From: a bacterium
GTDB lineage: Bacteria > Hydrothermota > Tepidihabitantia > B3-TA06
Assembly (NCBI GenBank): GCA_012517375.1
Contig: JAAYVC010000095.1
Location: 7,061-71,060, forward strand
Direction: 5' to 3'
DNA: 64,000 nt
A program made the translations under genes and the position numbers. A model generated the notes under the pieces. That model saw nothing but the letters and a program-made list of their open reading frames with translations, searched no databases and was not told where the DNA came from. Position 1 is the stretch's first letter. Each line of letters begins with the position of its first letter. Below are positions 1-10,451 of this stretch, piece after piece.

Positions 1-784
1 GGAAAGGATCAAAACTGCGGGCATAAACCGGAGAATTAATAAGAATGCCTTCCCTATTTCGAATCATGCCTGCCGTACTCTCAAAAGCGCCCGTCTCAAG
101 GTCCAAAGCCTCTGCAAGCGGTGCTGATTCCTTATCCTTTCCTGTTAGGACCTTCCACAAGCCAAACATGAAAAGACCTTCAAATCCTGGCTTTACCCTG
201 ATAAATTTATGGGCAAAATGCGATGTGTTTGATGCTACCGAATCTACCACAATATAACGAAAATCCTTATTATCGCTCTTTGCCTTTGCAAGATATCCTG
301 ATACCACCGAAAACTGAGAATAAGGATCTCCGACGATTAATGCATATCCTGCTGACGTAACCGCGTCTTGGTTGACGCTATTTCTCTTTCCATAGTTAAA
401 GACTTTTGCCGGAGAAAAGGATACATACGCCATGTTCTTGAAACCCGATGCCGATATCCAGTTTGAATAAGCGTCGATTTCTTCAACGGAAAAAGTATTG
501 TCATAGAGAAAAAGAACCTCCTCGGGTTTGTAATCCGACAACCGCCGTCTCAGATATTCAATACCTGCCGCAATTGAGGATGATTTTCCTTCTACTATTG
601 AATGATACAATCTTTTAGGATGATTGACGAAACTCGAGGCAGCATTTCCTCTCGGACACAATCTGCCTTCATTCCTTGAATTCGCAGTGTATTCAACCCT
701 GCGGACCTCCCCGTCTTTAACCTCAAAGGAAAGCCTGCATCCGAGATTACAAAAAGGGCAAACGGTCGATTCTCTATCGCTCAT
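1..784 (-). CDS. Molybdopterin (Mo/W-bisPGD) oxidoreductase catalytic subunit, N-terminal part. It runs off the window start and has no TAT signal, so it is probably cytoplasmic, formate-dehydrogenase-like.
   Basis: I hand-translated the reverse strand. It is an open frame of 261 codons with no stop, beginning MSDRESTVCPFCNLGCRLSF...GRLCPRGNAASSFVNH. The CxxCxxxC...CP(K/R)G N-terminal 4Fe-4S motif is typical of MopB enzymes. Its ATG overlaps the upstream stop (ATGA). It is missing from the ORF track because it has no in-window stop. Confidence 0.7.
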   Translation of the reverse strand, partial: MSDRESTVCPFCNLGCRLSFEVKDGEVRRVEYTANSRNEGRLCPRGNAASSFVNHPKRLYHSIVEGKSSSIAAGIEYLRRRLSDYKPEEVLFLYDNTFSVEEIDAYSNWISASGFKNMAYVSFSPAKVFNYGKRNSVNQDAVTSAGYALIVGDPYSQFSVVSGYLAKAKSDNKDFRYIVVDSVASNTSHFAHKFIRVKPGFEGLFMFGLWKVLTGKDKESAPLAEALDLETGAFESTAGMIRNREGILINSPVYARSFDPF

Positions 785-1593
785 ACAAATGGATCCTCGA
801 GGTGTTTTATCCTGTCCCACGTGATAACCGGGCCATCCTTGCAGCAGTAAAGCTCACCCAGCCTGCAATGTCCGCATTTACCGAAACCGCAAGACATATT
901 CTTCTCCATGGAAAGATAGATATCTTCATCGGCAAATCCAAGTTCCAGCAGTCGCTTAGTGGCGAATTTCATCATTATTGGCGGACCGCAAACCACAGCC
1001 AATCCGTCTTTCGGCGAGAAAGGCAGATTATCTAATAAGATTGTTACAACACCAACCTGCTCTTTCCAGTTCTTGTCTCCAACATCAACGCTTCGTCTTA
1101 TCTCGACATTTTGGATCTTTGCCCATTCCTTAAACATTCTTTCGTAGACAATGTCCTTTGAGGTCCGAGCGCCATAGTAAAGATGTATACCTTTGTATGC
1201 TGTAGGATTGTGCGTAAGAGCGAAGAATAACGCGCGCAAAGGAGCCATCCCGACGCCACCACCAACAAGTAGAACATGACGCTTCTCGTATTTTTCTATG
1301 GAGTAAGGAACACCATAGGGTCCCCTCACAGCTAAGGAATCACCAGGTCTGGCATCGAATAATTTACCGGTAACACGTCCGACCTTCATTATTGTCATTT
1401 CAATGTTTTTCTGCTCGTAAGGGGAAGATGAAGGAGTAAACGGCGCTTCACCGACTCCGGGAACGGTTAATTCAATGAACTGTCCTGCCCTGAATGCAAG
1501 AAACGGCTTAGGTTCCAGAACGAATGTCCTGATGTTCGGAGTTTCGACAATCACTTCCTTAACAAGAGCTGGCCGGGCTTCGTAGGGATTCAT
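781..1593 (-). CDS. FAD/NAD(P)-binding oxidoreductase with a C-terminal 2Fe-2S cluster (sulfhydrogenase gamma / AsrB / PyrK-like).
   Basis: The ORF is 781..1707. I trimmed it to the internal Met (MNPYEARPALVKEV...), which abuts the upstream stop. FAD/NAD-binding motifs are present. The C-terminus CGFGKCGHCRLGELYCCKDGPV is typical of the PyrK/HydG/AsrB family. Confidence 0.75.
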   Translation of the reverse strand: MNPYEARPALVKEVIVETPNIRTFVLEPKPFLAFRAGQFIELTVPGVGEAPFTPSSSPYEQKNIEMTIMKVGRVTGKLFDARPGDSLAVRGPYGVPYSIEKYEKRHVLLVGGGVGMAPLRALFFALTHNPTAYKGIHLYYGARTSKDIVYERMFKEWAKIQNVEIRRSVDVGDKNWKEQVGVVTILLDNLPFSPKDGLAVVCGPPIMMKFATKRLLELGFADEDIYLSMEKNMSCGFGKCGHCRLGELYCCKDGPVITWDRIKHLEDPFV

Positions 1594-2612
1594 AGGGCCC
1601 CCAGAACTTTGCGTATGTCTATTTTCCCGGAACAAGCGGATATGCATCGGCCGCAGCCTGTACACGCAATAACCTTGAAGTTCCTGGGAAAACTCATGAA
1701 TTTGCATTCAAATCTGTTTCGAAGACGGTGTGAGAAATGTGCAAGGGGGTTTGCTCCCCCTCCAACTCTGCCATAGGCAGCATGGTAGCAAAAATCAAGA
1801 ACTTTGATTCTATTAAAACCCTTGTCGCTTGGAGTATCATAGAGCAGAAAACAATAGCAGGTCGGGCAAATGCGTTCACAAGCCTGACAGTCTACACAGT
1901 TTTCTAAAACCTTGGACCAGAATTTTGTATCCATTTGCTTTTCAACACGTTTATCCAAATCATTCGGAAATTCAGAAGAATTTATTTTCGATAAATTACG
2001 TTCTGCGTCGCTACGGAATTTCTCACGTCGCTTAAGCTCTTTTTCAGGAATCTCAGTGAAAAGAGTACTCGCCTTTTCTATAAATTGTTCGCCTTTCGAG
2101 GAAAGAATATCGATTAAGAGTCCTTCATCTCCGAATGAAATGTTTAGATCGCCACCCCATATCGAGTAAGGCTTCCCGCCAATGCTTGTACAAAAACATG
2201 TATCCTGCGGTTCAGGACAATCTACAGTAACTATAAAATATTTCTCCCTGCGCTCCCGATAGAATGGGTCTTCAACCTCCCCCTTTAGATATATATTATC
2301 CTGTATCTCGATAAGAGAACGGATATCACAATCCTTAGGACCTATGATAACTTTCGGCTGCGATTCTTTTGAAAAGAATTGAGGATATGATGCAACCCTT
2401 TCTCTCGAAACAAGAAAAAATTCCTTTAAAGGTTCAACTGGACGAATCGTCTTCAGAGCTTCAAGAAGCTCTTCTGGTTTGACGGTTTCGTTTTTCCATA
2501 ATTCATATACAGCTTGGCGACCCTTGTTGCGTGGATAATAGGTATCCCCCAAATGCGACAATCGGTTGTATAAAGTAGGAATCGAGGCGTTAACTAAATA
2601 AAGAGACCTCAT
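1590..2612 (-). CDS. Iron-sulfur subunit with two 4Fe-4S cluster motifs (AsrA / sulfhydrogenase beta HydB-like).
   Basis: The ORF is 340 aa with the motifs CVDCQACERICPTCYC and CTGCGRCISACSGKID. It is the first gene of a three-gene coupled operon. Confidence 0.7.
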   Translation of the reverse strand: MRSLYLVNASIPTLYNRLSHLGDTYYPRNKGRQAVYELWKNETVKPEELLEALKTIRPVEPLKEFFLVSRERVASYPQFFSKESQPKVIIGPKDCDIRSLIEIQDNIYLKGEVEDPFYRERREKYFIVTVDCPEPQDTCFCTSIGGKPYSIWGGDLNISFGDEGLLIDILSSKGEQFIEKASTLFTEIPEKELKRREKFRSDAERNLSKINSSEFPNDLDKRVEKQMDTKFWSKVLENCVDCQACERICPTCYCFLLYDTPSDKGFNRIKVLDFCYHAAYGRVGGGANPLAHFSHRLRNRFECKFMSFPRNFKVIACTGCGRCISACSGKIDIRKVLGAL

Positions 2613-2620
2613 TAACGCGA

Positions 2621-2648
2621 ACCATACTCATATTTTTTGGTTTGTCAA
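2621..2648 (-). promoter_or_regulatory. Sigma70-type promoter: TTGACA, 16-bp spacer, TATGGT. The -10 element lies 8 nt from the ATG at 2612, so the operon mRNA is probably leaderless.
   Basis: Read on the reverse strand as aatacTTGACAaaccaaaaaatatgagTATGGTtcgcgttaATG. There is no Shine-Dalgarno sequence. Confidence 0.5.
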
Positions 2649-2870
2649 GTATTTGTTCTGTAGCACTATTTGGAAAATCGTAGCACTGTTTCGTTTTAAC
2701 ATTAAAGTGAAATTTCTTGTGCTTAATGATATCAAGATTATCCGCGGAACACGAATTCTTGCAAGACCTGATGTCCTGGTGGAACAACGGCCGTGTGATG
2801 AGAAGCGTCGGATTTCCCGACGGTCTGGATTTGACAATTTACGATATGATAATACTGTTTGAAAAATGAA

Positions 2871-3180
2871 AACTCGATAATACATCCTTCAGATTCATTG
2901 TTCTTCTCAAGAATGGAACACCTATAGGAGAAACTTCCTACCTCGATCATGATACCGAAAGAAATCAGATCGAAATAGGTTTGAGATACGCAAACCCGAT
3001 CTGTGGGGACAAGGATACGGTACTGAAACCCTTAAGGTCATGACGAATTATGCCTTTGAACATTCGGGTGTGGAGCGCGCTCTTCTTAATCCATCTAAAT
3101 CCAATTCCCGGATTATCCATGTTAATGAAAAGTGCGGCTATAGAACAATTGGTGAAAAAAAAATTATTAATGGAACTTAA
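2871..3180 (+). pseudogene. Decayed GNAT N-acetyltransferase remnant: C-terminal half only, with frameshifts.
   Basis: Two frames together read ...IGETSYLDHDTERNQIEIGLRYANP / DLWGQGYGTETLKVMTNYAFEHSGVERALL...RIIHVNEKCGYRTIG. This is the classic RimJ/RimL-like GNAT core. It is interrupted by a 1-nt frameshift near 2996-2998, and an A9 tract at 3155-3163 gives alternative C-termini. There is no N-terminal half and no start codon. Confidence 0.55.
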
Positions 3181-3555
3181 AAAATGCAATTGGTTTCTGG
3201 ATGAAATCGAATCTGAAAGCATAATTCATTAAACCCTTTCCACTAATAATTCTTTATCTTCCTGAAAACATAAATCTAATACAGGAACACATAAGTTTTT
3301 TGAGGTCAATTTAGTTTGTTAATTACTGAGGTAGATTACAAGACTGGCTCTCCTTCCAATAACATTTCATAAATAAGATTCTGTTAATAGACTTGAACGC
3401 AAAAACCCAACTAAAAGTAAGATGTTATCCAGAGGACACTATCGGCTATCTTTAGGCCAAGCTGATAAATAATCGATATCCTGCGTACAATTGAATCGCA
3501 ATGACTAATCTTGACAGCTTTCAAACCAAACCGTGTTTTAAGATTAAGTTACGCA

Positions 3556-3583
3556 CTTGACAATCCGAAAAGCTGCCTTATAA
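3556..3583 (+). promoter_or_regulatory. Near-consensus sigma70 promoter: TTGACA, 16-bp spacer, TATAAT.
   Basis: The sequence is acTTGACAatccgaaaagctgcctTATAATat. An AAGGAGG RBS sits 6 nt before the ATG at 3654. Confidence 0.6.
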
Positions 3584-3653
3584 TATATCCTTATTGGAAG
3601 CTATGGAGGAGGAAGGAAAAAGATGTCGACGTTTTAACGCAAGGAGGACACTC

Positions 3654-4028
3654 ATGAAACATGAAATTTGGTATGATAACAAAGAAGATGTATTACGAGA
3701 AAGAATAATAGGTACATTAACAGAAGATGATATACCTGAATTCCTTGCCAAGGTTGCCGAATTATTTGAAGGTAAGACACGCAGACGAGCCATTATAGAT
3801 CTCACGCAGGCCTCAAAGCAGGTCTACAGCAAAAAAGCCAGACAAATGCTGTCTGAAGGTTCAGCAAAACTCGGTTATGAAGAAAAAATTGCTTTTGTGG
3901 GGGCGGACCCAACCATAAGAATGATGGCTAAGGTTCTCATTTCGGGAGCAAAATTCCTAGGCAAACCAATAACTGCTCAATTCTTTAAGACAGATAAAGA
4001 TGCGATTGACTGGTTAAATCGCCAATAA
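3654..4028 (+). CDS. SpoIIAA-like / STAS-fold protein (paralogue 1 of 5).
   Basis: I trimmed to the MKHEIWYD start, which has an RBS. The protein is 124 aa. Its C-terminal motif ...IRMMAKVL...FFKTDKDAIDWL is shared with the ORFs at 4974, 5463, 5865 and 8793. Confidence 0.6.
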   Translation: MKHEIWYDNKEDVLRERIIGTLTEDDIPEFLAKVAELFEGKTRRRAIIDLTQASKQVYSKKARQMLSEGSAKLGYEEKIAFVGADPTIRMMAKVLISGAKFLGKPITAQFFKTDKDAIDWLNRQ

Positions 4029-4051
4029 CACTATACCTTAACCATCAATCT

Positions 4052-4678
4052 ATGGACAACTCAAAAATTGACGGATATGTAAGGCCTGCAAGGCCGGAAG
4101 ATGCCACGTATGCAGCCCCTCTTATAATCGAAACGGGATACGATACTATAATCATAAGTTTCGGATCATTAAAAAAGGGAAACCATGTTTTAAAAAGAAT
4201 GTTCTCCTTGCCTTCAAATATGCACAGTTTTCAACACAGTTCCGTGTACGTTAATCAGAACAAAGTTAAAGGTTTGCTTTTAGGATATGGTTCCGAGGAG
4301 GAAAGAAAAGAAACGCTGACAAGTTCAATGCTTCTGATTTCCTCAATGGGAATCTATGGCTTACTGCTTCTTGAAAGACTTTTACGAATCAGGAATCTTA
4401 TCGGCGAAATTCCTGACGAGGATTATTATATTCATTGTCTTGCGGTAAGTCCTGAATTGCGCGGTCAAGGCATAGGCTCCCTGCTTATGAAAGAAGCGGA
4501 ACGAATAGCCAAGCTTTCAAATAAAAAAAGGATTTCGTTGCTTGTTGAAGCAAGAAACAAACGAGCCATCAAGTTCTATCTTCGGGAAGGTTTTAAGGTA
4601 ATAGGACAAAGATACGATACGAGTTTCAAACAGCGATTTAACTTCGATAGCTACATGAAAATGACAAAAGCTCTCTGA
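4052..4678 (+). CDS. GNAT family N-acetyltransferase.
   Basis: The protein is 208 aa. It has the acetyl-CoA-binding motif LAVSPELRGQGIGSLLM and ...NKRAIKFYLREGFKV. Confidence 0.8.
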   Translation: MDNSKIDGYVRPARPEDATYAAPLIIETGYDTIIISFGSLKKGNHVLKRMFSLPSNMHSFQHSSVYVNQNKVKGLLLGYGSEEERKETLTSSMLLISSMGIYGLLLLERLLRIRNLIGEIPDEDYYIHCLAVSPELRGQGIGSLLMKEAERIAKLSNKKRISLLVEARNKRAIKFYLREGFKVIGQRYDTSFKQRFNFDSYMKMTKAL

Positions 4679-4973
4679 CTGATTTAGAAAAGATCCAAAT
4701 AATCGACAAATAACTTTCGAACCAGACAACCAAAATTTCGTACTTGTCAGGATTATTACCTATTTATTACAGTAGGTTATCCATAGTATTGTGCAAAATC
4801 CTTTTCTACCTAGTATTCAGTTACAGGAAGTTTGTTTATGAGGAGTAATTTCTTATACTTAAAACGCTGGCTAAAACAGCCACGCCGTTCTAGATTTTCC
4901 ACTAAAAAATGTTTATTTCTATGCTTTATAACAGGAATTAAACAAACCTTTCTCCCTATGGAGGTAATAAGCA

Positions 4974-5354
4974 ATGGTGACTGAAAAAAAGTTCGAGGGT
5001 GCCTATAATGATGAAAAGAAGTATCTTCACGTTACGGTATACAAAATCGATTCTGCAGATGATGCGCATGGAATGTGGAAGATGATAATAAAGGAACTTG
5101 AAGGGAAAACAAATAGGGAGGTGCTTGTGGATCTGAGTCCAAATAAGCAGACCTCCGTTGCACTCTCGGCAAGAAAGGCTTTCAGGGAATACGAAGATTT
5201 TTTCACGACTATCTCCAAGGTCGCATTCATAGCGGAAAATCCAATAATCCGCATGCTCGTTAAAACGACAATGACCGTTATAGATAAAAATAAAGTCTCG
5301 AAGTATTTTAAAACCGTTTCTGAAGGTTTGGAATGGCTCAAGGAGGGCAATTGA
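4974..5354 (+). CDS. SpoIIAA-like / STAS-fold protein (paralogue 2).
   Basis: The protein is 126 aa with an RBS (GGAGGT). It contains ...VLVDLSPNKQTS... and the C-terminus IRMLVKT...YFKTVSEGLEWLKEG. Confidence 0.6.
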   Translation: MVTEKKFEGAYNDEKKYLHVTVYKIDSADDAHGMWKMIIKELEGKTNREVLVDLSPNKQTSVALSARKAFREYEDFFTTISKVAFIAENPIIRMLVKTTMTVIDKNKVSKYFKTVSEGLEWLKEGN

Positions 5355-5462
5355 ATAGCAATCTAAAAGGACAGGTTAAAAAAACATTGGAATCAAGCAG
5401 GCTGATGGAATTGTCAAATTGCCGCTTGAAAATAAATGCGAGACAAAAGGGAGTTATCTAAA

Positions 5463-5828
5463 ATGCTGCATGAGATTTATTTCGATTATAACACAGGCTC
5501 CATCAGGATGAATTTCAAGGGTTTGTTTACACCGCAAGATGCGGAAGAGTTTTTTCCGTTGACAAAAAAACTCTGCGAAGGAAAAAAACGCTGTTATCTC
5601 CTTTGTGATTTCAAGGAAGGAGGAACTGAAATACCTAAAGATAAGGAATACAGACAGTGGCTTATTAAAATGTACAAGGAATCTGGTTTCGATCGAATAG
5701 CAATCTTCAATACGTCGCCTTCCATGAGAATGCTTGCAAAGATAGCTCTCGCGGCAGCGGGACAATCTAAAAACGTCCGATTCTTCAAAACAGAAGAAGA
5801 GGCACTATCATGGTTTCAAAACGAATAA
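5463..5828 (+). CDS. SpoIIAA-like / STAS-fold protein (paralogue 3).
   Basis: I trimmed to MLHEIYFDYN, parallel to MKHEIWYDN of paralogue 1. The C-terminus is MRMLAKIAL...FFKTEEEALSWFQNE. Confidence 0.6.
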   Translation: MLHEIYFDYNTGSIRMNFKGLFTPQDAEEFFPLTKKLCEGKKRCYLLCDFKEGGTEIPKDKEYRQWLIKMYKESGFDRIAIFNTSPSMRMLAKIALAAAGQSKNVRFFKTEEEALSWFQNE

Positions 5829-5864
5829 ACAACGAAACCATAAGTTAGTAAAAGGGGTGTCATC

Positions 5865-6053
5865 ATGGATGAATACCTTATACCTCAGGCTCTGAATTTT
5901 CTCGATGAAGCCTGCAGAGAGATGAATTGGAAGAAAGTAGCGTTTATCAACGCCGGTTCTCTTGTCCTCATACAACGTCTTGCAGCAAAAGATGGAATTC
6001 GAATTTTCAACAGTAAAGATGAGGCATTGAACTGGTTGAAGGATGGATTATAA
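5865..6053 (+). CDS. Truncated SpoIIAA-like paralogue (C-terminal half only, 62 aa).
   Basis: It retains the family C-terminal motif LIQRLAAKDGIRIFNSKDEALNWLKDG. It has its own RBS (AAAAGGGGTG). Confidence 0.45.
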   Translation: MDEYLIPQALNFLDEACREMNWKKVAFINAGSLVLIQRLAAKDGIRIFNSKDEALNWLKDGL

Positions 6054-6332
6054 ACTATTTTTTTGTTAAATTATTATAATGCTATGCTCTTCACTTTCCC
6101 CTGTATCTAGTTTAGAAGATTATTGTAGGGTAATTCTGTATAATTATTCGTTAACTAATACCGTTTTTAAAAATAAGGATTATTCGAGCAATGGGGTTGC
6201 ATAAGAGGAAAATTATGTATAATTACGTTACGGGTATCGTAAAACTATTTGTATTGGTTTCAAGTGAGGTAATAAATCAGGAGGATGTAAAATCCTCAGG
6301 AAACCTCGTAATAAGATACTGAAGGAGTAAAA

Positions 6333-6986
6333 ATGGCTGAAGGAAAAGTAAAAGGAATCAGAAACTTCGAAAAGAGAATCGAAGCCATCGAAGAAGTGCT
6401 TGCTACTGCCGCTGGCGGCGATTTCATGTCAGAGATCTCCATCGATATGGAGGAACCTGATGTACTAACATCAGTTGAAACGGGCATAAATCTTTTGATT
6501 TCTGATCTCGGAGAAGAGGTACGCCAGAGTCAGAATCGTGCCCAGGAACTCCAGGATAAACTGGACCTAATCGAGAAACAAAGACAGGCAATCGAGGAGC
6601 TGTCAACACCCATAATAAAGATTTGGGATCAAGTGTTAGTCTTGCCTCTGATAGGCGCACTTGATACAAGACGTTCGCAAAAACTTACGGAATCGCTATT
6701 AAACGAGATTGCTTCAACTCAAAGCAAGGTCACGATACTTGACATCACGGGCGTTCCAACGGTGGATTCGGCAGTGGCTAACCACATACTCAAAACCGTT
6801 GCATCTGTGAAACTTCTCGGCGCCCAATGCGTAATTACAGGTATAAGACCTGAAGTCGCACAAACCATCGTTCACCTTGGAGTTGATCTATCTGAAGTCG
6901 AAACCCTATCAAATCTTTCAGAAGGACTCAAGTGGGCCTTCAAACATTTGCATCTTAAGATAACAGAAGATAACAAGAAGGCTTGA
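6333..6986 (+). CDS. rsbR: RsbR-like stressosome sensor/co-antagonist: a short N-terminal coiled-coil domain plus a C-terminal STAS domain.
   Basis: The C-terminal part STPIIKIWDQVLVLPLIGALDTRRSQKLTESLL...VTILDITGVPTVDSAVANHILKTVASVKLLGAQCVITGIRPEVAQTIVHLGVDL closely follows the RsbR STAS consensus. Confidence 0.8.
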   Translation: MAEGKVKGIRNFEKRIEAIEEVLATAAGGDFMSEISIDMEEPDVLTSVETGINLLISDLGEEVRQSQNRAQELQDKLDLIEKQRQAIEELSTPIIKIWDQVLVLPLIGALDTRRSQKLTESLLNEIASTQSKVTILDITGVPTVDSAVANHILKTVASVKLLGAQCVITGIRPEVAQTIVHLGVDLSEVETLSNLSEGLKWAFKHLHLKITEDNKKA

Positions 6987-6987
6987 A

Positions 6988-7422
6988 ATGCTGCAAAATA
7001 ATCCCGTTCCCATTCTCAAACTCAGGGATTTCCTCCTCGTTTCTATACAGACAGACCTCCATGACCGTATGGCAGAACAACTCCAATATGATATCCTCAG
7101 GCGGATTTCGGAAACGCAGGCGAAGGGCGTCTTGATAGATATCTCCGCATTAGAGATGGTCGATTCTTTCATTGGACGAACCCTTGCGGATACTGCACGA
7201 ATGGCAAACACGCTGGATGCAGAAATAGTAATAGTAGGAATGAAGCCTGCAGTCGCAATAACCCTAGTCGAACTCGGTCTTTCTCTTGGAGACGTTCAAA
7301 CCGCCCTTTCTTTGGAAGACGGATTCCACATCCTAGAAGAATCACTCCTTGATTCCAGTTCTAAAGACGAAGAGGAAGCTTCAGAAGAAACAGAGGTCGA
7401 AGAGAATGATGATTCCAATTAA
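6988..7422 (+). CDS. rsbS: RsbS-like stressosome scaffold (single STAS domain) with an acidic C-terminal tail.
   Basis: The sequence is PILKLRDFLLVSIQTDLHDRMAEQLQYDILRRISETQAKGVLIDISALEMVDSFIGRTLADTARMANTLDAEIVIVGMKPAVAITLVELGL. It starts 1 nt after the rsbR stop. Confidence 0.8.
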   Translation: MLQNNPVPILKLRDFLLVSIQTDLHDRMAEQLQYDILRRISETQAKGVLIDISALEMVDSFIGRTLADTARMANTLDAEIVIVGMKPAVAITLVELGLSLGDVQTALSLEDGFHILEESLLDSSSKDEEEASEETEVEENDDSN

Positions 7423-7792
7423 TGAGGAATCTGATATCGTTCACGCACGCAACGAAGCAAAGGAATTCGCAAAAAAGCTGGGATTCGGTCTTGTCGACCA
7501 GACAAGAATAAGCACAGCCGTATCCGAGCTCGCTCGAAACGTTTACACCTATGCAGGAAAAGGGGAGGTTACAATTCAAGAACTTTCAAATCCTCATCGG
7601 GGAATACGTATAGAGTTCAAGGATGAAGGACCTGGGATTGAAGACGTAGAACTCGCAATGCAGGACGGGTGGTCATCATCCCGGAGTATGGGCAAAGGAT
7701 TACCCGGCTCTAAAAGACTCGTCGATTTTATGGAGATAAATAGCAAACCTGGTTCAGGAACCTTAATTATTATTGAAAAATGGCTGAGTTGA
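7406..7792 (+). CDS. rsbT: RsbT-like switch serine kinase (GHKL ATPase).
   Basis: I trimmed to MMIPINEESDIVHARNEAKEFAKKLGF...ELARNVYTYAG...EDEGPGIED. The length and motifs match an anti-sigma-regulatory-factor kinase of about 130 aa. It overlaps the rsbS 3' end. Confidence 0.75.
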   Translation: MMIPINEESDIVHARNEAKEFAKKLGFGLVDQTRISTAVSELARNVYTYAGKGEVTIQELSNPHRGIRIEFKDEGPGIEDVELAMQDGWSSSRSMGKGLPGSKRLVDFMEINSKPGSGTLIIIEKWLS

Positions 7793-8796
7793 AACCAGAA
7801 AAAGGCGAACTTCAAATCGAAGTATCCGAACATATTCTCTGGGCTAAGGGTGTAGTAAAGCGATTCGCAGAAAAGCTTGGCTTCTATTCAAGCTCCCTTC
7901 ACGAAATAGAGCTTTGCGTTGCCGAACTTGCCACGAATCTTATCGTGCACAAGGTCAAAAATGGAAGATTGAGTTTTAACGCAATCTCTGAAAACGGGCT
8001 ACGCGGGATAGAAATCACGGCGCAGGACGAAGGACCTGGCATCAAAAACCTGCCGGACGCCTTGAGGGGAGGGGTAAGCTCCTCTGGCTCGTTGGGACAG
8101 GGTCTGGCTTCAGTACAACGATTTGCAGATGAATTCGAGATACATTCGAATCAGGAAGGAACGCATGTCAAAATACGCAAATACCTTCCACCTGAAAAAG
8201 AAAGCGAAGATACTTCCAGGAGAGACCTTACAGTCAGCGTTTCAGTAAGAACTCACCCCGAATCGACCGTTTGCGGAGATGGACATATAATCCGTCACGA
8301 CGGTCCAAAAACGCTTTTAGCCGTTATTGACGGCCTCGGACATGGCAAATCCGCACGGGAAGCCGCGGCCGCAGCCGAAGCTTATATACACGCTAATTAT
8401 CGGAAAACCCTGGAACAAATGCCTGAAGAATTGCATTCTATTCTGCGTCATACTAGAGGAGCGGTTGCATCCATAGCTAGAATCGACGAAGACAAGGAGA
8501 AAATTGACTACATTGGAGTCGGCAACATCAGTGCAAGATTATGGCTTCCTCAATCATCTGAAATGGTAAGGCTTGTCTCAATGAGCGGTACGCTCGGAGT
8601 CAGTCTTCGCACGCCGAGGCTTTTCAGTTATCCATGGAAAAAGAAAAGCGTTTTAATCATGCACAGCGACGGAATCCGCGAGCACTGGGAAGTTACAAAG
8701 AAAGAGCTTTCCGAATCGCCGACCGAAATAGCTCAGGAGTTGATTAAAAATTACTGGCGTAAAAACGACGATGCCACCGTTCTTGTCGCAAAATGA
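7780..8796 (+). CDS. Fusion protein: N-terminal RsbT/RsbW-like GHKL serine kinase domain plus a C-terminal PP2C (SpoIIE/RsbU/RsbX-type) phosphatase domain.
   Basis: The N-terminus VSEHILWAKGVVKRFAEKLGF...ELATNLIVHK...QDEGPGIKNL parallels RsbT. The C-terminus GDGHIIRHDGPKTLLAVIDGLGHGKSAREAA...IMHSDGI is a PP2C signature. Confidence 0.7.
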   Translation: MAELKPEKGELQIEVSEHILWAKGVVKRFAEKLGFYSSSLHEIELCVAELATNLIVHKVKNGRLSFNAISENGLRGIEITAQDEGPGIKNLPDALRGGVSSSGSLGQGLASVQRFADEFEIHSNQEGTHVKIRKYLPPEKESEDTSRRDLTVSVSVRTHPESTVCGDGHIIRHDGPKTLLAVIDGLGHGKSAREAAAAAEAYIHANYRKTLEQMPEELHSILRHTRGAVASIARIDEDKEKIDYIGVGNISARLWLPQSSEMVRLVSMSGTLGVSLRTPRLFSYPWKKKSVLIMHSDGIREHWEVTKKELSESPTEIAQELIKNYWRKNDDATVLVAK

Positions 8797-9173
8797 AACT
8801 CTTGAGTTTTACGGAGCAGGGCATATGTCGCATGCGACTCGAGGGGCTTCCCGAACCGAAAGAGATTGAAGATCTTATTGAAGAATATGTCACTCAAGTC
8901 GAGCTTCTTCCTTACTCTCTTAAAATAATATACTTTGATATTTCCAATCTCACCCACATGGGCGCGAGGGCAAGACAAGTTTTTTCGGAACTGCTTACCC
9001 AAGCTTCAATGCATTACGGCGGAAAAGTCCAGCTTGTTGTTGCAGGGGGATCACTCAATCTCAGACGTTTCATAGAGCTTTTCTGCAAAGGGATTGGATT
9101 CGTAGACCACAGCCACTTCTTTGAAACATTGAAAGAAGCTGATGATTGGGTGGCTGAATTTCTTTCTTCCTGA
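8793..9173 (+). CDS. SpoIIAA-like / STAS-fold protein (paralogue 5), a likely phospho-substrate (anti-anti-sigma-like) of the preceding kinase/phosphatase.
   Basis: It overlaps the upstream gene by ATGA. It contains ...IIYFDISNLTHMGARARQVF..., a DLS-x-SSG-like phospho-site region with Thr. The C-terminus FFETLKEADDWV matches the paralogue family. Confidence 0.55.
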   Translation: MKLLSFTEQGICRMRLEGLPEPKEIEDLIEEYVTQVELLPYSLKIIYFDISNLTHMGARARQVFSELLTQASMHYGGKVQLVVAGGSLNLRRFIELFCKGIGFVDHSHFFETLKEADDWVAEFLSS

Positions 9174-9239
9174 AACCCGTACTTGACAAAACCAAATACA
9201 ACCGCATAATAAAATTATAAACTCGTCAAGGAGGAGTCT

Positions 9240-10451
9240 TTGAATAAAACATTTCTTTTTGTCCTGGTTTTATACGCATCAACAGCGTTGATTGCAGGTG
9301 ATTCGCTAAATGTAAAGACAATTGGAAGCTACGAGTCCTCTACCCTTGCAAAATACATAACGATATCCGGGGATTATGCATATCTGTCGTGCTTTGATAT
9401 GGCGTTAAAAATCATTGATGTATCCGACAGAACCAATCCCATTGAAGTCAGCCATTATCAAACAACAGACTTCTACAATCCTAACGGAATCCACGTTTCA
9501 GGAACAAATGCCTTTCTTGCGTACGGTTTTGACAATGACAGTACAGGTATGGCTGTCGTAGATATCTCCAATGAATCCGGTCCGTTTGAAATCAGTTATA
9601 CACCAACCGAACTCAGGGCGCATGACGTTTATGTTTCCGGTTCGTACGCCTATGTTCCTGAGTGCCTGGGGCTTTGTATTTATGATATCTCTTCTCCATC
9701 AACACCGGATTCGATTGGATACTGCGAAATATCACTCTTATCCCATCCTCAATGCGTATTTGTTTCAGGTAATTATGCATACGTGGGCGGGACAAAAACC
9801 TTGAAGATAATCAATATAACCGATCCACACAAGCCCTTCGAATCAGGCTCCTGCACTGTGGAACCTTACGTTTGGGGCGTTTTCGTATCAGGTAACTACG
9901 CCTGCCTTGCGGCAGACATCTCAGGACTTAAGATACTGGACGTATCTGATCCCTCAAACCCCGCTGTTATCGGTTCGTACGACACACCTGGAAGCGCCAA
10001 TGCCGTTTACGTGTCCGGTTCTTATGCATACGTTGCGGATGACTTTGCTGGATTAAGAGTTATCGACATATCGACACCTACAACTCCACAAGAAGTGGGT
10101 TATTATGAGACCCCCAATATCGCTCTTGATGTCTATGCTTCTCATCCTTACGCTTATGTAACTTGCCAAAGCAAGGGTTTGCAAATATACGAATACGGAG
10201 AACTACCTGTATCGGTTAAGGAAACACAAGCGCAACAGCCGTGCATTTCCTGTTCTTTGAACAAACTAATCTATGATGTAGCTGAAAAGACGGATTTGAG
10301 AATATACGCTCCGAACGGTCGATTATTGTTTGTAACCCAGATATCCGGGAAAGGAGCAGTTGATTTTTCGAATAAGTTGGTAAGCGGTGTTTATTTCGCT
10401 CAACTAAGCGATGCTCCTGGGAACAGGGTTAAACTAGTTATCATGAATTGA
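9240..10451 (+). CDS. LVIVD-repeat secreted protein with a T9SS/Por-type C-terminal sorting domain.
   Basis: It has a signal peptide and TTG start. It carries 7 or more LVIVD-type repeats (VSGSYAYV...GL.I.DIS.P..P). The C-terminus is SGVYFAQLSDAPGNRVKLVIMN. Confidence 0.75.
   Translation: MNKTFLFVLVLYASTALIAGDSLNVKTIGSYESSTLAKYITISGDYAYLSCFDMALKIIDVSDRTNPIEVSHYQTTDFYNPNGIHVSGTNAFLAYGFDNDSTGMAVVDISNESGPFEISYTPTELRAHDVYVSGSYAYVPECLGLCIYDISSPSTPDSIGYCEISLLSHPQCVFVSGNYAYVGGTKTLKIINITDPHKPFESGSCTVEPYVWGVFVSGNYACLAADISGLKILDVSDPSNPAVIGSYDTPGSANAVYVSGSYAYVADDFAGLRVIDISTPTTPQEVGYYETPNIALDVYASHPYAYVTCQSKGLQIYEYGELPVSVKETQAQQPCISCSLNKLIYDVAEKTDLRIYAPNGRLLFVTQISGKGAVDFSNKLVSGVYFAQLSDAPGNRVKLVIMN

What the first reader, a model, noticed from the sequence alone, without database searches (positions are those of the whole stretch)
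3556..6053. Array of four divergent single-domain SpoIIAA-like (STAS) paralogues, one truncated, plus a GNAT, just upstream of the stressosome operon
The ORFs at 3654, 4974, 5463 and 5865 (plus 8793 downstream) share a C-terminal signature, (I/M)RM(L/M)AK...(F/Y)FKT(D/E)(K/E)(D/E)A(I/L)(D/S)W(L/F), and parallel N-termini (MKHEIWYDN versus MLHEIYFDYN). Otherwise they are highly diverged, each with its own RBS, and 5865 keeps only the C-terminal half. Five antagonist-like proteins for one kinase/phosphatase is an unusual expansion. The first gene has a near-consensus sigma70 promoter, and a GNAT acetyltransferase is embedded in the array. They could be alternative partner-switching inputs or outputs, or decoys.
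Basis: partly seen in the sequence, partly recalled or inferred. Interest (0 to 1): 0.6.

Follow-up and report, generated by a model that had tools for sequence, protein, structure and literature searches.

The report
STAS-like partner genes of HAMP-type stressosome
The small paralogous genes upstream of this stress-signalling operon have a real STAS fold, but they belong to a little-studied family that almost always sits directly before a signalling protein starting with a cytoplasmic HAMP domain. That points to them being detachable input subunits, greatly multiplied in this bacterial lineage.

Summary
A (3654), B (4974) and C (5463) are true paralogues of Pfam PF11964/PF25056, and an AlphaFold model of C has a STAS fold. 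D (5865) is a decayed C-terminal relic. E (8793) is a distant but homologous subfamily. The GNAT gene, the perfect sigma-70 promoter and the RsbR-RsbS-RsbT-PP2C operon are all present.

The interpretation needs revising. These proteins are not SpoIIAA/RsbV-type antagonists: they get no TIGR00377 hit and have no D-S phospho-motif. The window's RsbR carries an N-terminal cytoplasmic HAMP domain instead of a globin or LOV sensor.

The family ("PARA") is tied to exactly that HAMP type:
- 24 of 31 genome loci found through PARA have an N-terminal-HAMP protein directly downstream.
- 72 of 77 metagenome loci found through the HAMP motif alone have a PARA gene immediately upstream.
- The partners are mostly histidine kinases, in Bacteria and Archaea.

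In WOR-3 and TA06 bacteria the HAMP is fused to the RsbR STAS domain. In several WOR-3 genomes PARA is amplified into arrays of up to 32 consecutive genes. The window's own MAG has a second locus with about 23 more.

The most likely mechanism is that PARA proteins are trans-acting input partners of the RsbR HAMP. No paper in the searched library describes this.

The parts
3557..3584 (+). Sigma-70-type promoter, TTGACA-16 nt-TATAAT, upstream of gene A
   Evidence: 12 of 12 consensus match, the best in 2600-9600
3654..4028 (+). PARA-A, 124 aa, PF11964/DUF7793 STAS-like protein (NCBI NLI98947.1, 'STAS/SEC14 domain-containing protein')
   Evidence: PF11964 29.4 bits. Family HMM 138 bits. Exact match in NCBI. 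AAGGAGG Shine-Dalgarno motif. Ser at the helix alpha2 N-cap, the position that aligns with the RsbS phospho-Ser.
4052..4678 (+). GNAT N-acetyltransferase, 208 aa, 23 bp after A. Lineage-specific insert in the array.
   Evidence: PF00583 E 3.5e-15; only sub-threshold RimI-like NCBIfam hits. No homologue in any of the other fetched loci.
4974..5354 (+). PARA-B, 126 aa (NCBI NLI98949.1, GX441_09880)
   Evidence: PF25056 30.4 bits. Family HMM 130 bits. Closest relatives are in the second array of the same MAG (47%) and in L007 (45%). Exact NCBI match.
5463..5828 (+). PARA-C, 121 aa. The last intact paralogue before rsbR, and the likely cognate partner of the RsbR HAMP.
   Evidence: PF11964 38.9 bits. 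AF2 pLDDT 88.1 with a STAS fold. Orthologues at 66-70% identity; in L007 the orthologue lies immediately upstream of rsbR. Asp60 occupies the phospho-Ser-equivalent position.
5865..6053 (+). D, 62-aa relic covering only the C-terminal half of a PARA domain (beta4 to alpha4). Probably a decaying remnant.
   Evidence: Family HMM positions 65-119 only, 23.5 bits. Pfam sub-threshold. Best phmmer hit 22 bits. No room for an N-terminal half, because only 36 bp follow C. Similar fragments occur in other arrays.
6127..6225 (+). Two copies of a 20-nt element, each containing TGTATAAT (an extended -10-like motif), in the 279-bp gap before rsbR
   Evidence: Direct repeat D2 at 6127-6146 and 6206-6225, 85% identical. 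Any promoter function is inferred.
6333..6986 (+). RsbR-like protein, 217 aa: N-terminal cytoplasmic HAMP (about aa 11-60), a long linker helix (to aa 90), then a STAS domain
   Evidence: PF01740 E 5.6e-18. N-terminus versus HAMP N-termini of PARA-linked kinases: hhalign 97%, E 7.8e-11. AF2 shows H12-27, loop, H44-90, then STAS. Foldseek top hit is Listeria stressosome RsbR 7b0u, E 7.6e-13. D145-S146 and T191 are invariant in 62 homologues.
6988..7422 (+). RsbS-like STAS protein, 144 aa, carrying the canonical V-D-S phospho-motif
   Evidence: PF01740 E 3.2e-11. D59-S60 invariant.
7406..7792 (+). RsbT-like GHKL serine kinase, 128 aa
   Evidence: HATPase_c_2/HATPase_c. Sub-threshold TIGR01925 spIIAB similarity, E 4.5e-14, 52.5 bits against a cut-off of 135.
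7780..8796 (+). GHKL (RsbW/RsbT-like) + PP2C (SpoIIE-type) phosphatase fusion, 338 aa
   Evidence: HATPase_c_2 aa 24-134 and SpoIIE aa 177-337. Conserved after rsbT in L007, L016 and L027.
8793..9173 (+). E, 126 aa. A distinct, conserved PARA-related subfamily that always follows the PP2C gene.
   Evidence: hhalign to the PARA profile 95.9%, E 5e-9; to canonical STAS 7.7%. Orthologues in L007, L016 and L027 at 50-58% identity.

Best explanation
A, B and C, together with the diverged E, belong to a STAS-fold family (PF11964/PF25056, here called PARA). Its conserved genomic partner is a cytoplasmic HAMP domain at the extreme N-terminus of a signalling protein.

In most lineages one to four PARA genes directly precede a HAMP-histidine kinase. 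In WOR-3 and TA06 bacteria the same HAMP type is fused to the RsbR STAS domain of a stressosome (RsbR-RsbS-RsbT plus a PP2C).

Proposed mechanism:
1. The RsbR HAMP has no membrane or sensor domain of its own. PARA proteins dock on it, probably through their invariant R64/R89/W117 face.
2. Their ligand-bound or modified state sets the HAMP conformation.
3. The signal passes down the long linker helix into the STAS core and controls capture or release of the RsbT kinase. The GHKL-PP2C protein, possibly together with E, resets the system.
4. The many deeply diverged paralogues are alternative plug-in inputs. There are 3 here, about 23 more elsewhere in this MAG, and up to 32 consecutive genes in a relative.

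D is a dead remnant and the GNAT gene is a local insertion.

Shown: fold, family membership, gene linkage, the HAMP identity of the RsbR N-terminus, and the amplification. Inferred: physical PARA-HAMP contact, a sensing role, and the direction of signal flow.
For: Fold and family:
- AF2 model of C has pLDDT 88 and pTM 0.81. Foldseek matches SpoIIAA, 2q3l and RsbS.
- Profile search of the PDB gives 3bl4 at E 8.8e-10 and 2q3l at 8.9e-4.
- The family has 3,424 cluster representatives, nearly all single-domain and about 120 aa.

Linkage to HAMP:
- Forward test: 24 of 31 genome loci found with a PARA motif have an N-terminal-HAMP ORF directly downstream.
- Reverse test: 72 of 77 metagenome loci found only through the HAMP motif have a PARA gene within 400 bp upstream on the same strand.
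- All 20 downstream proteins scanned carry histidine-kinase or PAS signalling domains (18 of 20 a kinase ATPase domain), and 15 of 20 show a Pfam HAMP hit at or near the N-terminus.
- HAMP-only ORFs lie inside PARA arrays or between PARA genes: L030, L020 16781-17017 and L022.

The window's RsbR N-terminus is this HAMP type: hhalign 97%, E 7.8e-11, and AF2 shows helix-loop-long helix.

Linkage to the stressosome:
- One PARA per RsbR in TA06 and in WOR-3 Bin.72.
- Arrays run straight into rsbR with 0-3 bp gaps in L007 and L016.

Cognate pairing: PARA and HAMP identity matrices correlate (Mantel r 0.75; 0 of 2000 permutations reach it). Type-2 HAMPs are always preceded by type-2 PARAs in three genomes.

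Maintenance by selection:
- Within-array identity has a median of about 29%, yet all ORFs are intact.
- Orthologues show pN 0.20 against pS 0.95.

Diversification is concentrated in alpha1 and the beta3-alpha2 loop, while one face stays invariant.
Against: - No direct evidence of PARA-HAMP binding. Everything rests on gene order, covariation (confounded by phylogeny) and domain logic.
- Pfam's HAMP model does not hit the window's RsbR itself.
- In the window, the array is split into separate transcription units. A+GNAT have their own promoter, and a 279-bp gap plus the D relic separate C from rsbR.
- Some WOR-3 PARA clusters (L021, L023) have no adjacent HAMP gene.
- Dozens of paralogues for one to five HAMP-RsbRs is a stoichiometric puzzle.
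- The helix alpha2 N-cap, which aligns with the RsbS/SpoIIAA phospho-Ser, is Ser/Thr in 39 of 42 kinase-paired PARAs and Ser/Thr/Asp in 95 of 120 array members. That pattern would also fit regulation by phosphorylation.
Confidence: 0.55

Rival explanations
1. Partner-switching substrates or decoys. PARA proteins bind and/or are phosphorylated by the RsbT-like kinase or by the GHKL domain of the PP2C protein, acting as RsbV/SpoIIAA-like antagonists. Copies with Asp at the acceptor position would act as constitutive phosphomimics.
For: STAS fold, with top PDB matches being SpoIIAA in complex with SpoIIAB. The helix alpha2 N-cap aligns with the RsbS phospho-Ser; it is Ser in A and B and Asp in C, S/T in 93% of kinase-paired members, and D/S/T in 79% of array members. 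Two GHKL domains and a PP2C are encoded next door. E always follows the GHKL-PP2C gene.
Against: No hit to ant_ant_sig or spore_II_AA models. The Asp preceding the acceptor Ser (D-S, conserved in the local RsbS and RsbR) is missing. S, T and D are also simply the preferred helix N-cap residues. In most lineages PARA is paired with histidine kinases, with no Ser kinase or PP2C nearby. hhalign to the local STAS domains gives only 22%.
Confidence: 0.2
2. Alternative core subunits. PARA proteins co-assemble with the RsbR and RsbS STAS domains into the stressosome shell, tuning its composition.
For: Same fold class as RsbS and RsbR. Encoded in one operon with rsbR/S/T in relatives. Natural proteins with 2-4 tandem PARA domains exist.
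Against: The PARA model superposes poorly on RsbS (TM about 0.62, rmsd 4.1 A), whereas the window's RsbR STAS matches RsbS at TM 0.92, rmsd 1.3 A. The family's ancestral context is HAMP-kinases without RsbS or RsbT.
Confidence: 0.1
3. Carriers or enzymes for hydrophobic small molecules, as proposed for the Shewanella PF11964 proteins, with no direct signalling role. On this view the linkage to signalling genes is only regulatory.
For: Sequence relatives 2q3l and 2ook were interpreted as CRAL-TRIO-like ligand carriers (PMC2954212). LuxE/LuxC acyl-activating genes flank PARA genes in TA06 and WOR-3 Bin.72. A GNAT gene follows A in the window.
Against: The near-obligate, same-strand, abutting position before an N-terminal HAMP (72 of 77) is hard to explain without a direct functional link. 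Ligand binding is compatible with, and is part of, the best explanation.
Confidence: 0.08
4. Largely non-functional, drifting tandem duplicates produced by unequal crossing-over.
For: Truncated relics such as D occur in several arrays. Copy number varies widely between relatives, from 3 to 34 per locus.
Against: Copies are old (median about 29% identity) yet keep intact ORFs, overlapping start/stop codons and the same invariant residues. Orthologues show pN far below pS. No DNA repeats indicate recent duplication in the window.
Confidence: 0.04

Closest known systems
Stressosome (RsbR-RsbS-RsbT with an RsbX-type PP2C) of Bacillus subtilis, Listeria, Vibrio vulnificus and Moorella thermoacetica
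   Same: The gene order is RsbR (STAS), RsbS (STAS), RsbT (GHKL kinase), then a PP2C. The D-S phospho-motifs are conserved in RsbS and RsbR. The RsbR model best matches Listeria stressosome RsbR 7b0u and RsbS 6jhk. Several inputs feeding one hub recalls the RsbRA-RD/YtvA paralogues (own knowledge; PMC9765535 abstract).
   Different: The RsbR sensor domain is replaced by a bare cytoplasmic HAMP. The variable, presumably sensing, modules are separate small proteins rather than RsbR N-terminal domains, and they number in the dozens. The PP2C carries an N-terminal GHKL domain. No sigma factor or RsbU/V/W lies nearby, so the output is unknown.
SpoIIAA / RsbV anti-sigma-factor antagonists (PF01740, TIGR00377)
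   Same: beta-alpha STAS fold. SpoIIAA chains are the top Foldseek hits (TM 0.65-0.68).
   Different: No match to TIGR00377 or TIGR02886. 12-19% identity. No D-S-S-G or D-S acceptor motif. A different Pfam family. The conserved partner is a HAMP domain, not an anti-sigma kinase.
PF11964 'SpoIIAA-like' / DUF3478 and PF25056 (DUF7793) proteins with solved structures: Arthrobacter arth_0117 (3bl4), Shewanella Shew_3102 (2q3l), YP_749275.1 (2ook)
   Same: Same sequence family: 3bl4 E 8.8e-10 with the shared motifs ..AR..F..P..R.LA.. and FF.(S/T)E..AL.WL; 2q3l E 8.9e-4. Single-domain proteins of about 120 aa.
   Different: Those proteins have no assigned function; a lipid or hydrophobic-ligand carrier role was proposed (PMC2954212). 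They are not reported next to HAMP proteins or stressosomes. The Aliiglaciecola-type members found here (L049) likewise lack a HAMP neighbour.
Trans-acting partners of sensor turrets or kinases, for example Listeria Prli42 binding RsbR, or the KipI/Sda inhibitors of KinA (own knowledge, not tested here)
   Same: A small separate protein modulating a signalling protein that lacks its own sensor for that cue.
   Different: Unrelated folds. None targets a HAMP domain, and none forms large paralogue arrays.

Membership tests
STAS fold superfamily (Pfam clan of PF01740, PF11964, PF13466) | Four- to five-stranded beta-sheet with flanking helices in the order beta-beta-alpha-beta-alpha-beta-alpha-beta-alpha; structural match to solved STAS domains | tested here: met
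   AF2 model of C has pLDDT 88.1 with the expected order of elements. Foldseek probability is 1.00 to SpoIIAA, 2q3l, RsbS and stressosome chains, TM 0.6-0.68.
PF11964 SpoIIAA-like / PF25056 DUF7793 | Score above Pfam's gathering threshold | tested here: met
   A 29.4 bits against 25 (PF11964). B 30.4 against 26 (PF25056). C 38.9 against 25 (PF11964). D (14 bits) and E (no hit) are below threshold, but they join the family through the custom HMM (D, E 7e-6) and hhalign (E, 95.9%).
SpoIIAA/RsbV anti-sigma-factor antagonist (TIGR00377, TIGR02886) | Match to the family model | tested here: not met
   No NCBIfam hit for A, B, C, D or E at E<=1. In the same search the window's RsbR and RsbS get only sub-threshold matches to TIGR00377 (33.7 and 28.0 bits against a cut-off of 53.45).
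SpoIIAA/RsbV anti-sigma-factor antagonist (TIGR00377, TIGR02886) | Phosphorylatable Ser/Thr preceded by Asp (D-S) at the N-terminus of helix alpha2 | tested here: not met
   The aligned position is S (A), S (B), D (C) and G/A (E), and the preceding Asp is absent. The hhalign register is low-confidence (22%) but agrees with the helix start in the AF2 model.
SpoIIAA/RsbV anti-sigma-factor antagonist (TIGR00377, TIGR02886) | Phosphorylation by, and binding to, a cognate GHKL anti-sigma kinase | not testable with these tools
   Needs biochemistry. GHKL proteins are encoded nearby, but no sigma factor lies within about 10 kb.
Stressosome module (for the adjacent operon) | Adjacent rsbR (C-terminal STAS), rsbS (STAS) and rsbT (GHKL kinase) genes, with conserved phospho-acceptor residues | tested here: met
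   Pfam and NCBIfam domain hits. RsbS D59-S60 and RsbR D145-S146 and T191 are invariant. The best structural match is stressosome RsbR/RsbS.
Stressosome module (for the adjacent operon) | Assembly into a pseudo-icosahedral complex of about 1.8 MDa that sequesters RsbT | not testable with these tools
   Requires expression and cryo-EM or SEC.
HAMP domain (PF00672), for the RsbR N-terminus | Two amphipathic helices of about 16 residues joined by a connector of about 14 residues; match to the HAMP model | tested here: inconclusive
   Pfam HAMP does not hit the window's RsbR. Its N-terminal profile aligns at 97% probability (E 7.8e-11) with the N-termini of PARA-linked kinases, and 15 of 20 of those have Pfam HAMP hits at or near the N-terminus. 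AF2 gives helix 12-27, a 16-residue connector, and a helix starting at residue 44. The four-helix dimer cannot be tested here.
PARA + N-terminal-HAMP gene pair (defined in this report) | A PARA gene on the same strand immediately upstream of a gene whose product begins with this HAMP subtype | tested here: met
   In the window, C lies 508 bp upstream of rsbR, with the D relic in between. The orthologous C in L007 is 3 bp from rsbR. Across all loci the rule holds in 72 of 77 and 24 of 31 cases.

The most novel reading that the evidence does not exclude
PARA proteins are a previously unrecognised class of detachable, trans-acting sensor subunits for cytoplasmic N-terminal HAMP domains, used by histidine kinases across Bacteria and Archaea. 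In WOR-3/TA06 bacteria the HAMP is fused to RsbR. A single stressosome could then be loaded with any of 25-55 diverged plug-in sensors encoded in giant tandem arrays, giving a combinatorial receptor repertoire for stress sensing. The variable beta3-alpha2 loop and helix alpha1 would set ligand or signal specificity.
Probability: 0.35. Interest if true: 0.85.

Novelty: new variant of a known kind. Interest (0 to 1): 0.72.

Why it matters
What stressosomes actually sense, and how the signal enters the STAS core, is a long-standing open question. This lineage offers a natural system in which the presumed sensing modules are separate small proteins, and the entry point is a HAMP domain, a well-understood signal converter. 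That makes the question testable by binding assays and cryo-EM.

More broadly, the near-obligate PARA/N-terminal-HAMP gene pair would give a function to a large family of unknown role (PF11964/DUF7793 subset, thousands of sequence clusters). It would also explain how 'orphan' cytoplasmic HAMP-kinases that lack a sensor receive input.

The giant arrays, up to 32 consecutive genes and more than 50 per genome, are an unusual case of regulator amplification in small genomes of uncultured anaerobes.

Tried and rejected
Searches and scans that failed or found nothing:
- The genome scan with the full 25-sequence alignment failed because it had no sufficiently conserved stretch. I repeated it with 8 closer sequences.
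- The single-sequence word-index search with C found only 4 close relatives.
- A repeat search in 3300-6400 found no attC-like, recombination-site or recent-duplication repeats, so an integron-cassette or cassette-switching reading was rejected.
- tblastn for LuxE/LuxC in the window and the big arrays, and for the GNAT in all loci, found none beyond the window's own strain.
- tRNA and Rfam scans of the window found nothing.

Selection tests that gave no usable signal:
- dN/dS between the window and L007 could not be estimated because synonymous sites are saturated (pS 0.83-0.95). Only pN far below pS can be stated.
- Population variation gave nothing. The locus is 100% identical in six metagenome samples.

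Literature:
- Four searches found no paper on PARA-HAMP pairing, HAMP-type RsbR or WOR-3 stressosomes.
- At least one 'HAMP' hit in a stressosome paper turned out to be 'Hampton Research'.

Not attempted:
- I prepared 43 PARA+HAMP concatenated pairs for a complex prediction but did not submit them.

Weak evidence:
- The Mantel correlation is reported only as weak support because shared phylogeny inflates it.

Full report
**1. What is in the window**

ORFs A (3654-4028), B (4974-5354), C (5463-5828), D (5865-6053) and E (8793-9173) exist as described, with a 208-aa GNAT gene (4052-4678) between A and B. A perfect sigma-70 consensus, TTGACA-16-TATAAT, lies at 3557-3584. Shine-Dalgarno-like motifs precede A, B, C, D and rsbR but not the GNAT gene.

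Downstream lie four more genes:
- an RsbR-like STAS protein (6333-6986);
- an RsbS-like STAS protein (6988-7422);
- an RsbT-like GHKL kinase (7406-7792);
- a 338-aa GHKL+PP2C protein (7780-8796).

A, B and C are 25-30% identical to each other, with pairwise E-values of 1e-8 to 3e-19. Each passes the gathering threshold of PF11964 (SpoIIAA-like) or PF25056 (DUF7793). D matches only the C-terminal half of the family profile (positions 65-119, 23.5 bits), and only 36 bp separate it from C, so it is a relic. E belongs to a conserved sister subfamily: hhalign gives 95.9% to the family profile and 7.7% to canonical STAS. It always follows the PP2C gene in relatives.

**2. Fold and family**

An AlphaFold2 model of C, built on 45 homologues, has pLDDT 88.1 and pTM 0.81 with STAS topology. 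Its best PDB matches are SpoIIAA (1th8_B, TM 0.65/0.68), the DUF3478 protein 2q3l, and RsbS 6jhk. By sequence profile the nearest solved structures are the uncharacterised proteins 3bl4 (E 8.8e-10) and 2q3l (8.9e-4). The only functional proposal for this family is a CRAL-TRIO-like carrier of hydrophobic ligands (PMC2954212). A profile search of 1.84 billion representatives finds 3,424 clusters, almost all single-domain proteins of about 120 aa.

The proteins are not SpoIIAA/RsbV-type antagonists:
- They get no hit to TIGR00377 or TIGR02886.
- Profile similarity to the local RsbS/RsbR STAS domains is weak (22%).
- The D-S acceptor motif, invariant in the local RsbS and RsbR, is absent.

The residue that aligns with the phospho-Ser is the N-cap of helix alpha2. 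It is Ser in A and B, Asp in C, and Gly/Ala in E.

**3. The expansion is far larger than the window shows**

The window locus is identical in six metagenome assemblies. It corresponds to an NCBI MAG labelled only 'bacterium' (A = NLI98947.1, B = NLI98949.1 / GX441_09880).

The same MAG (GX441_03540) carries a second locus with about 23 full-length paralogues, one fragment and a second RsbR-like gene. Relatives carry:
- 12 full-length copies plus one fragment directly abutting rsbR (L007);
- at least 12 full-length copies plus one fragment (L013);
- in the WOR-3 MAG GCA_016934635.1, 32 consecutive genes followed by rsbR, then more copies and a complete rsbR-S-T module. At least 53 full-length copies lie on three contigs of that genome.

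Genes in these arrays overlap or abut, which suggests translational coupling. The paralogues are old, with a median within-array identity of about 29%. Orthologues are conserved: C is 66-70% identical between species, with pN 0.20 against pS 0.95. This argues for maintained, distinct functions.

**4. The conserved partner is an N-terminal HAMP domain**

Scanning GTDB genomes with a PARA motif returned 31 loci. Besides the WOR-3/Stahlbacteria arrays, there were 1-3 PARA genes in Prolixibacteraceae, Rikenellaceae and other Bacteroidota, Dehalococcoidia, Aminicenantes, Fibrobacterota, Calditrichales, Thermoplasmata and Methanosarcina. In these they sit immediately upstream of a larger gene whose N-terminus matched the N-terminal 85 residues of my RsbR profile, not its STAS domain.

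The downstream genes encode cytoplasmic signalling proteins. Most are histidine kinases with architectures HAMP-HisKA-HATPase, with or without PAS, GAF or REC domains. Pfam detects a HAMP domain at or near the N-terminus in 15 of the 20 proteins scanned.

The window's RsbR N-terminus aligns with this HAMP subtype..RI..I..V..AA.GD(F/Y)......D.....V..GIN.(L/M)I.D(L/I). The hhalign result is 97%, E 7.8e-11. Its AF2 model shows helix 12-27, a 16-residue connector, and a helix 44-90 that runs into the STAS domain. That STAS domain superposes on RsbS at TM 0.92 and best matches Listeria stressosome RsbR.

Counts for the association:
- Forward test: 24 of 31 loci show it.
- Reverse test: among metagenome loci retrieved through the HAMP motif alone, 72 of the 77 with enough upstream sequence have a PARA gene within 400 bp upstream on the same strand. 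Three of the five exceptions are the weakest HAMP matches.

Two further observations point at the HAMP itself as the partner. HAMP-only ORFs occur inside arrays or between PARA genes. In TA06 and WOR-3 Bin.72 each HAMP-RsbR is preceded by exactly one PARA gene.

PARA and HAMP divergence are correlated (Mantel r 0.75), and a second RsbR HAMP subtype is always paired with a matching PARA subtype in three genomes. This is weak support because phylogeny contributes to the correlation.

**5. Mechanism proposed**

A HAMP domain normally relays a signal from transmembrane helices. Here it is at the extreme N-terminus of a soluble protein, so it needs an input delivered in trans.

The most economical reading is that PARA proteins bind this HAMP and set its conformational state. 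In most organisms that would control a histidine kinase. In this lineage it would control, through the long linker helix, the STAS core of a stressosome and hence RsbT.

The residues invariant in both the kinase-paired and the array members are D49, R64, A80, R89, F108, A114 and W117 (C numbering). They define a common face, presumably the partner-binding one. By contrast, helix alpha1 and the beta3-alpha2 loop are hypervariable in the arrays, while that loop is conserved (NKAGKx[ST][SP]xARK) in kinase-paired members. This fits a model of a common docking surface with diversified specificity.

Fold, family, linkage, HAMP identity and amplification are shown. Binding, sensing and the direction of signalling are inferred. 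I put this at about 0.55.

**6. Rivals**

- Partner switching or decoys for RsbT or the GHKL-PP2C (about 0.2). Favoured by the S/T/D pattern at the acceptor-equivalent position: 39 of 42 S/T in kinase-paired members, and D 47, S 30, T 18 of 120 in arrays. Disfavoured by the missing D-S motif, the failed model matches, and the absence of Ser kinases next to most PARA genes.
- Co-assembly into the STAS core (about 0.1). Disfavoured by the poor structural match to RsbS (rmsd 4.1 A for PARA against 1.3 A for RsbR).
- Pure ligand carriers (about 0.08). Compatible as a sub-function. LuxE/LuxC genes flank PARA genes in two lineages, and a GNAT follows A here. That GNAT is unique to this strain.
- Junk duplicates (about 0.04). 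Contradicted by the conservation of old copies.

**7. Novelty and verdict**

In the searchable literature I found nothing on PARA-HAMP pairing, HAMP-type RsbR or these arrays. The stressosome module itself is known, and PF11964 is a known family without a function.

I classify the finding as a new variant of a known kind: a stressosome whose sensor domain is replaced by a HAMP, served by detached and massively amplified STAS-like proteins.

The window holds a small, partly eroded outpost of that system: three intact copies, one relic, one inserted GNAT and the E subfamily member. Interest 0.72.

Noticed in passing
L130 4053-9044; L131 578-12259: In TA06 and WOR-3 Bin.72, PARA genes are repeatedly paired divergently with LuxE (acyl-protein synthetase, PF04443) and LuxC (acyl-CoA reductase) genes on the opposite strand. 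This is a possible clue to an acyl or hydrophobic ligand or modification. No such genes occur in the window or the large arrays.
   Followed up: partly
window 6127-6146 and 6206-6225: Two 85%-identical 20-nt elements, each containing TGTATAAT (an extended -10-like motif), lie in the 279-bp gap between the D relic and rsbR. They suggest the stressosome operon has its own promoter(s) here, unlike relatives where the array abuts rsbR.
   Followed up: no
window 9183-9210: Near-consensus promoter (TTGACA-16-CATAAT, 11/12) in front of the LVIVD-repeat gene (9240-10451) that follows E. It marks the 3' end of the stressosome operon.
   Followed up: no
window 1-2612 and upstream (L001 1-8959): On the minus strand, divergent from the array, lies a gene cluster resembling formate hydrogenlyase or a group-4 [NiFe]-hydrogenase: molybdopterin oxidoreductase, Fe-S proteins, NuoH/L-like subunits and the NiFe large subunit.
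   Followed up: no
P0094 (578 aa), P0045 (288 aa): Natural single polypeptides with four and two tandem PARA domains joined by Q/E/P-rich linkers. PARA domains can evidently work as covalently linked multimers.
   Followed up: partly
L016 15771-16560 (= L020 19399-20284): The WOR-3 genome with the 32-gene array also has a duplicated RsbS-RsbT pair between rsbT and the GHKL-PP2C gene.
   Followed up: no
L020 16781-17017; L022 9119-9385 and 11278-11514; L030 9422-9859: Free-standing ORFs (about 70-145 aa) that consist only of the N-terminal HAMP-like segment, embedded in PARA arrays or flanked by PARA genes.
   Followed up: partly
L036 10445-11347: A 300-aa ORF, possibly a transposase (not scanned), is inserted between a PARA gene and its HAMP-histidine kinase in a Prolixibacteraceae genome. 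It is the only case where the pair is interrupted by a full gene.
   Followed up: no
L007 11029-11742: In the related species a PatA-type response regulator (PatA_N + REC) follows the E-like gene and could be an output component. The window has no equivalent, since the LVIVD gene follows E.
   Followed up: no
window 7349-7422: The RsbT ORF can start at TTG 7349 or ATG 7406. Both overlap the 3' end of rsbS, and gene callers used 7406. rsbT, the PP2C gene and E also overlap by 4-13 bp, consistent with translational coupling.
   Followed up: no
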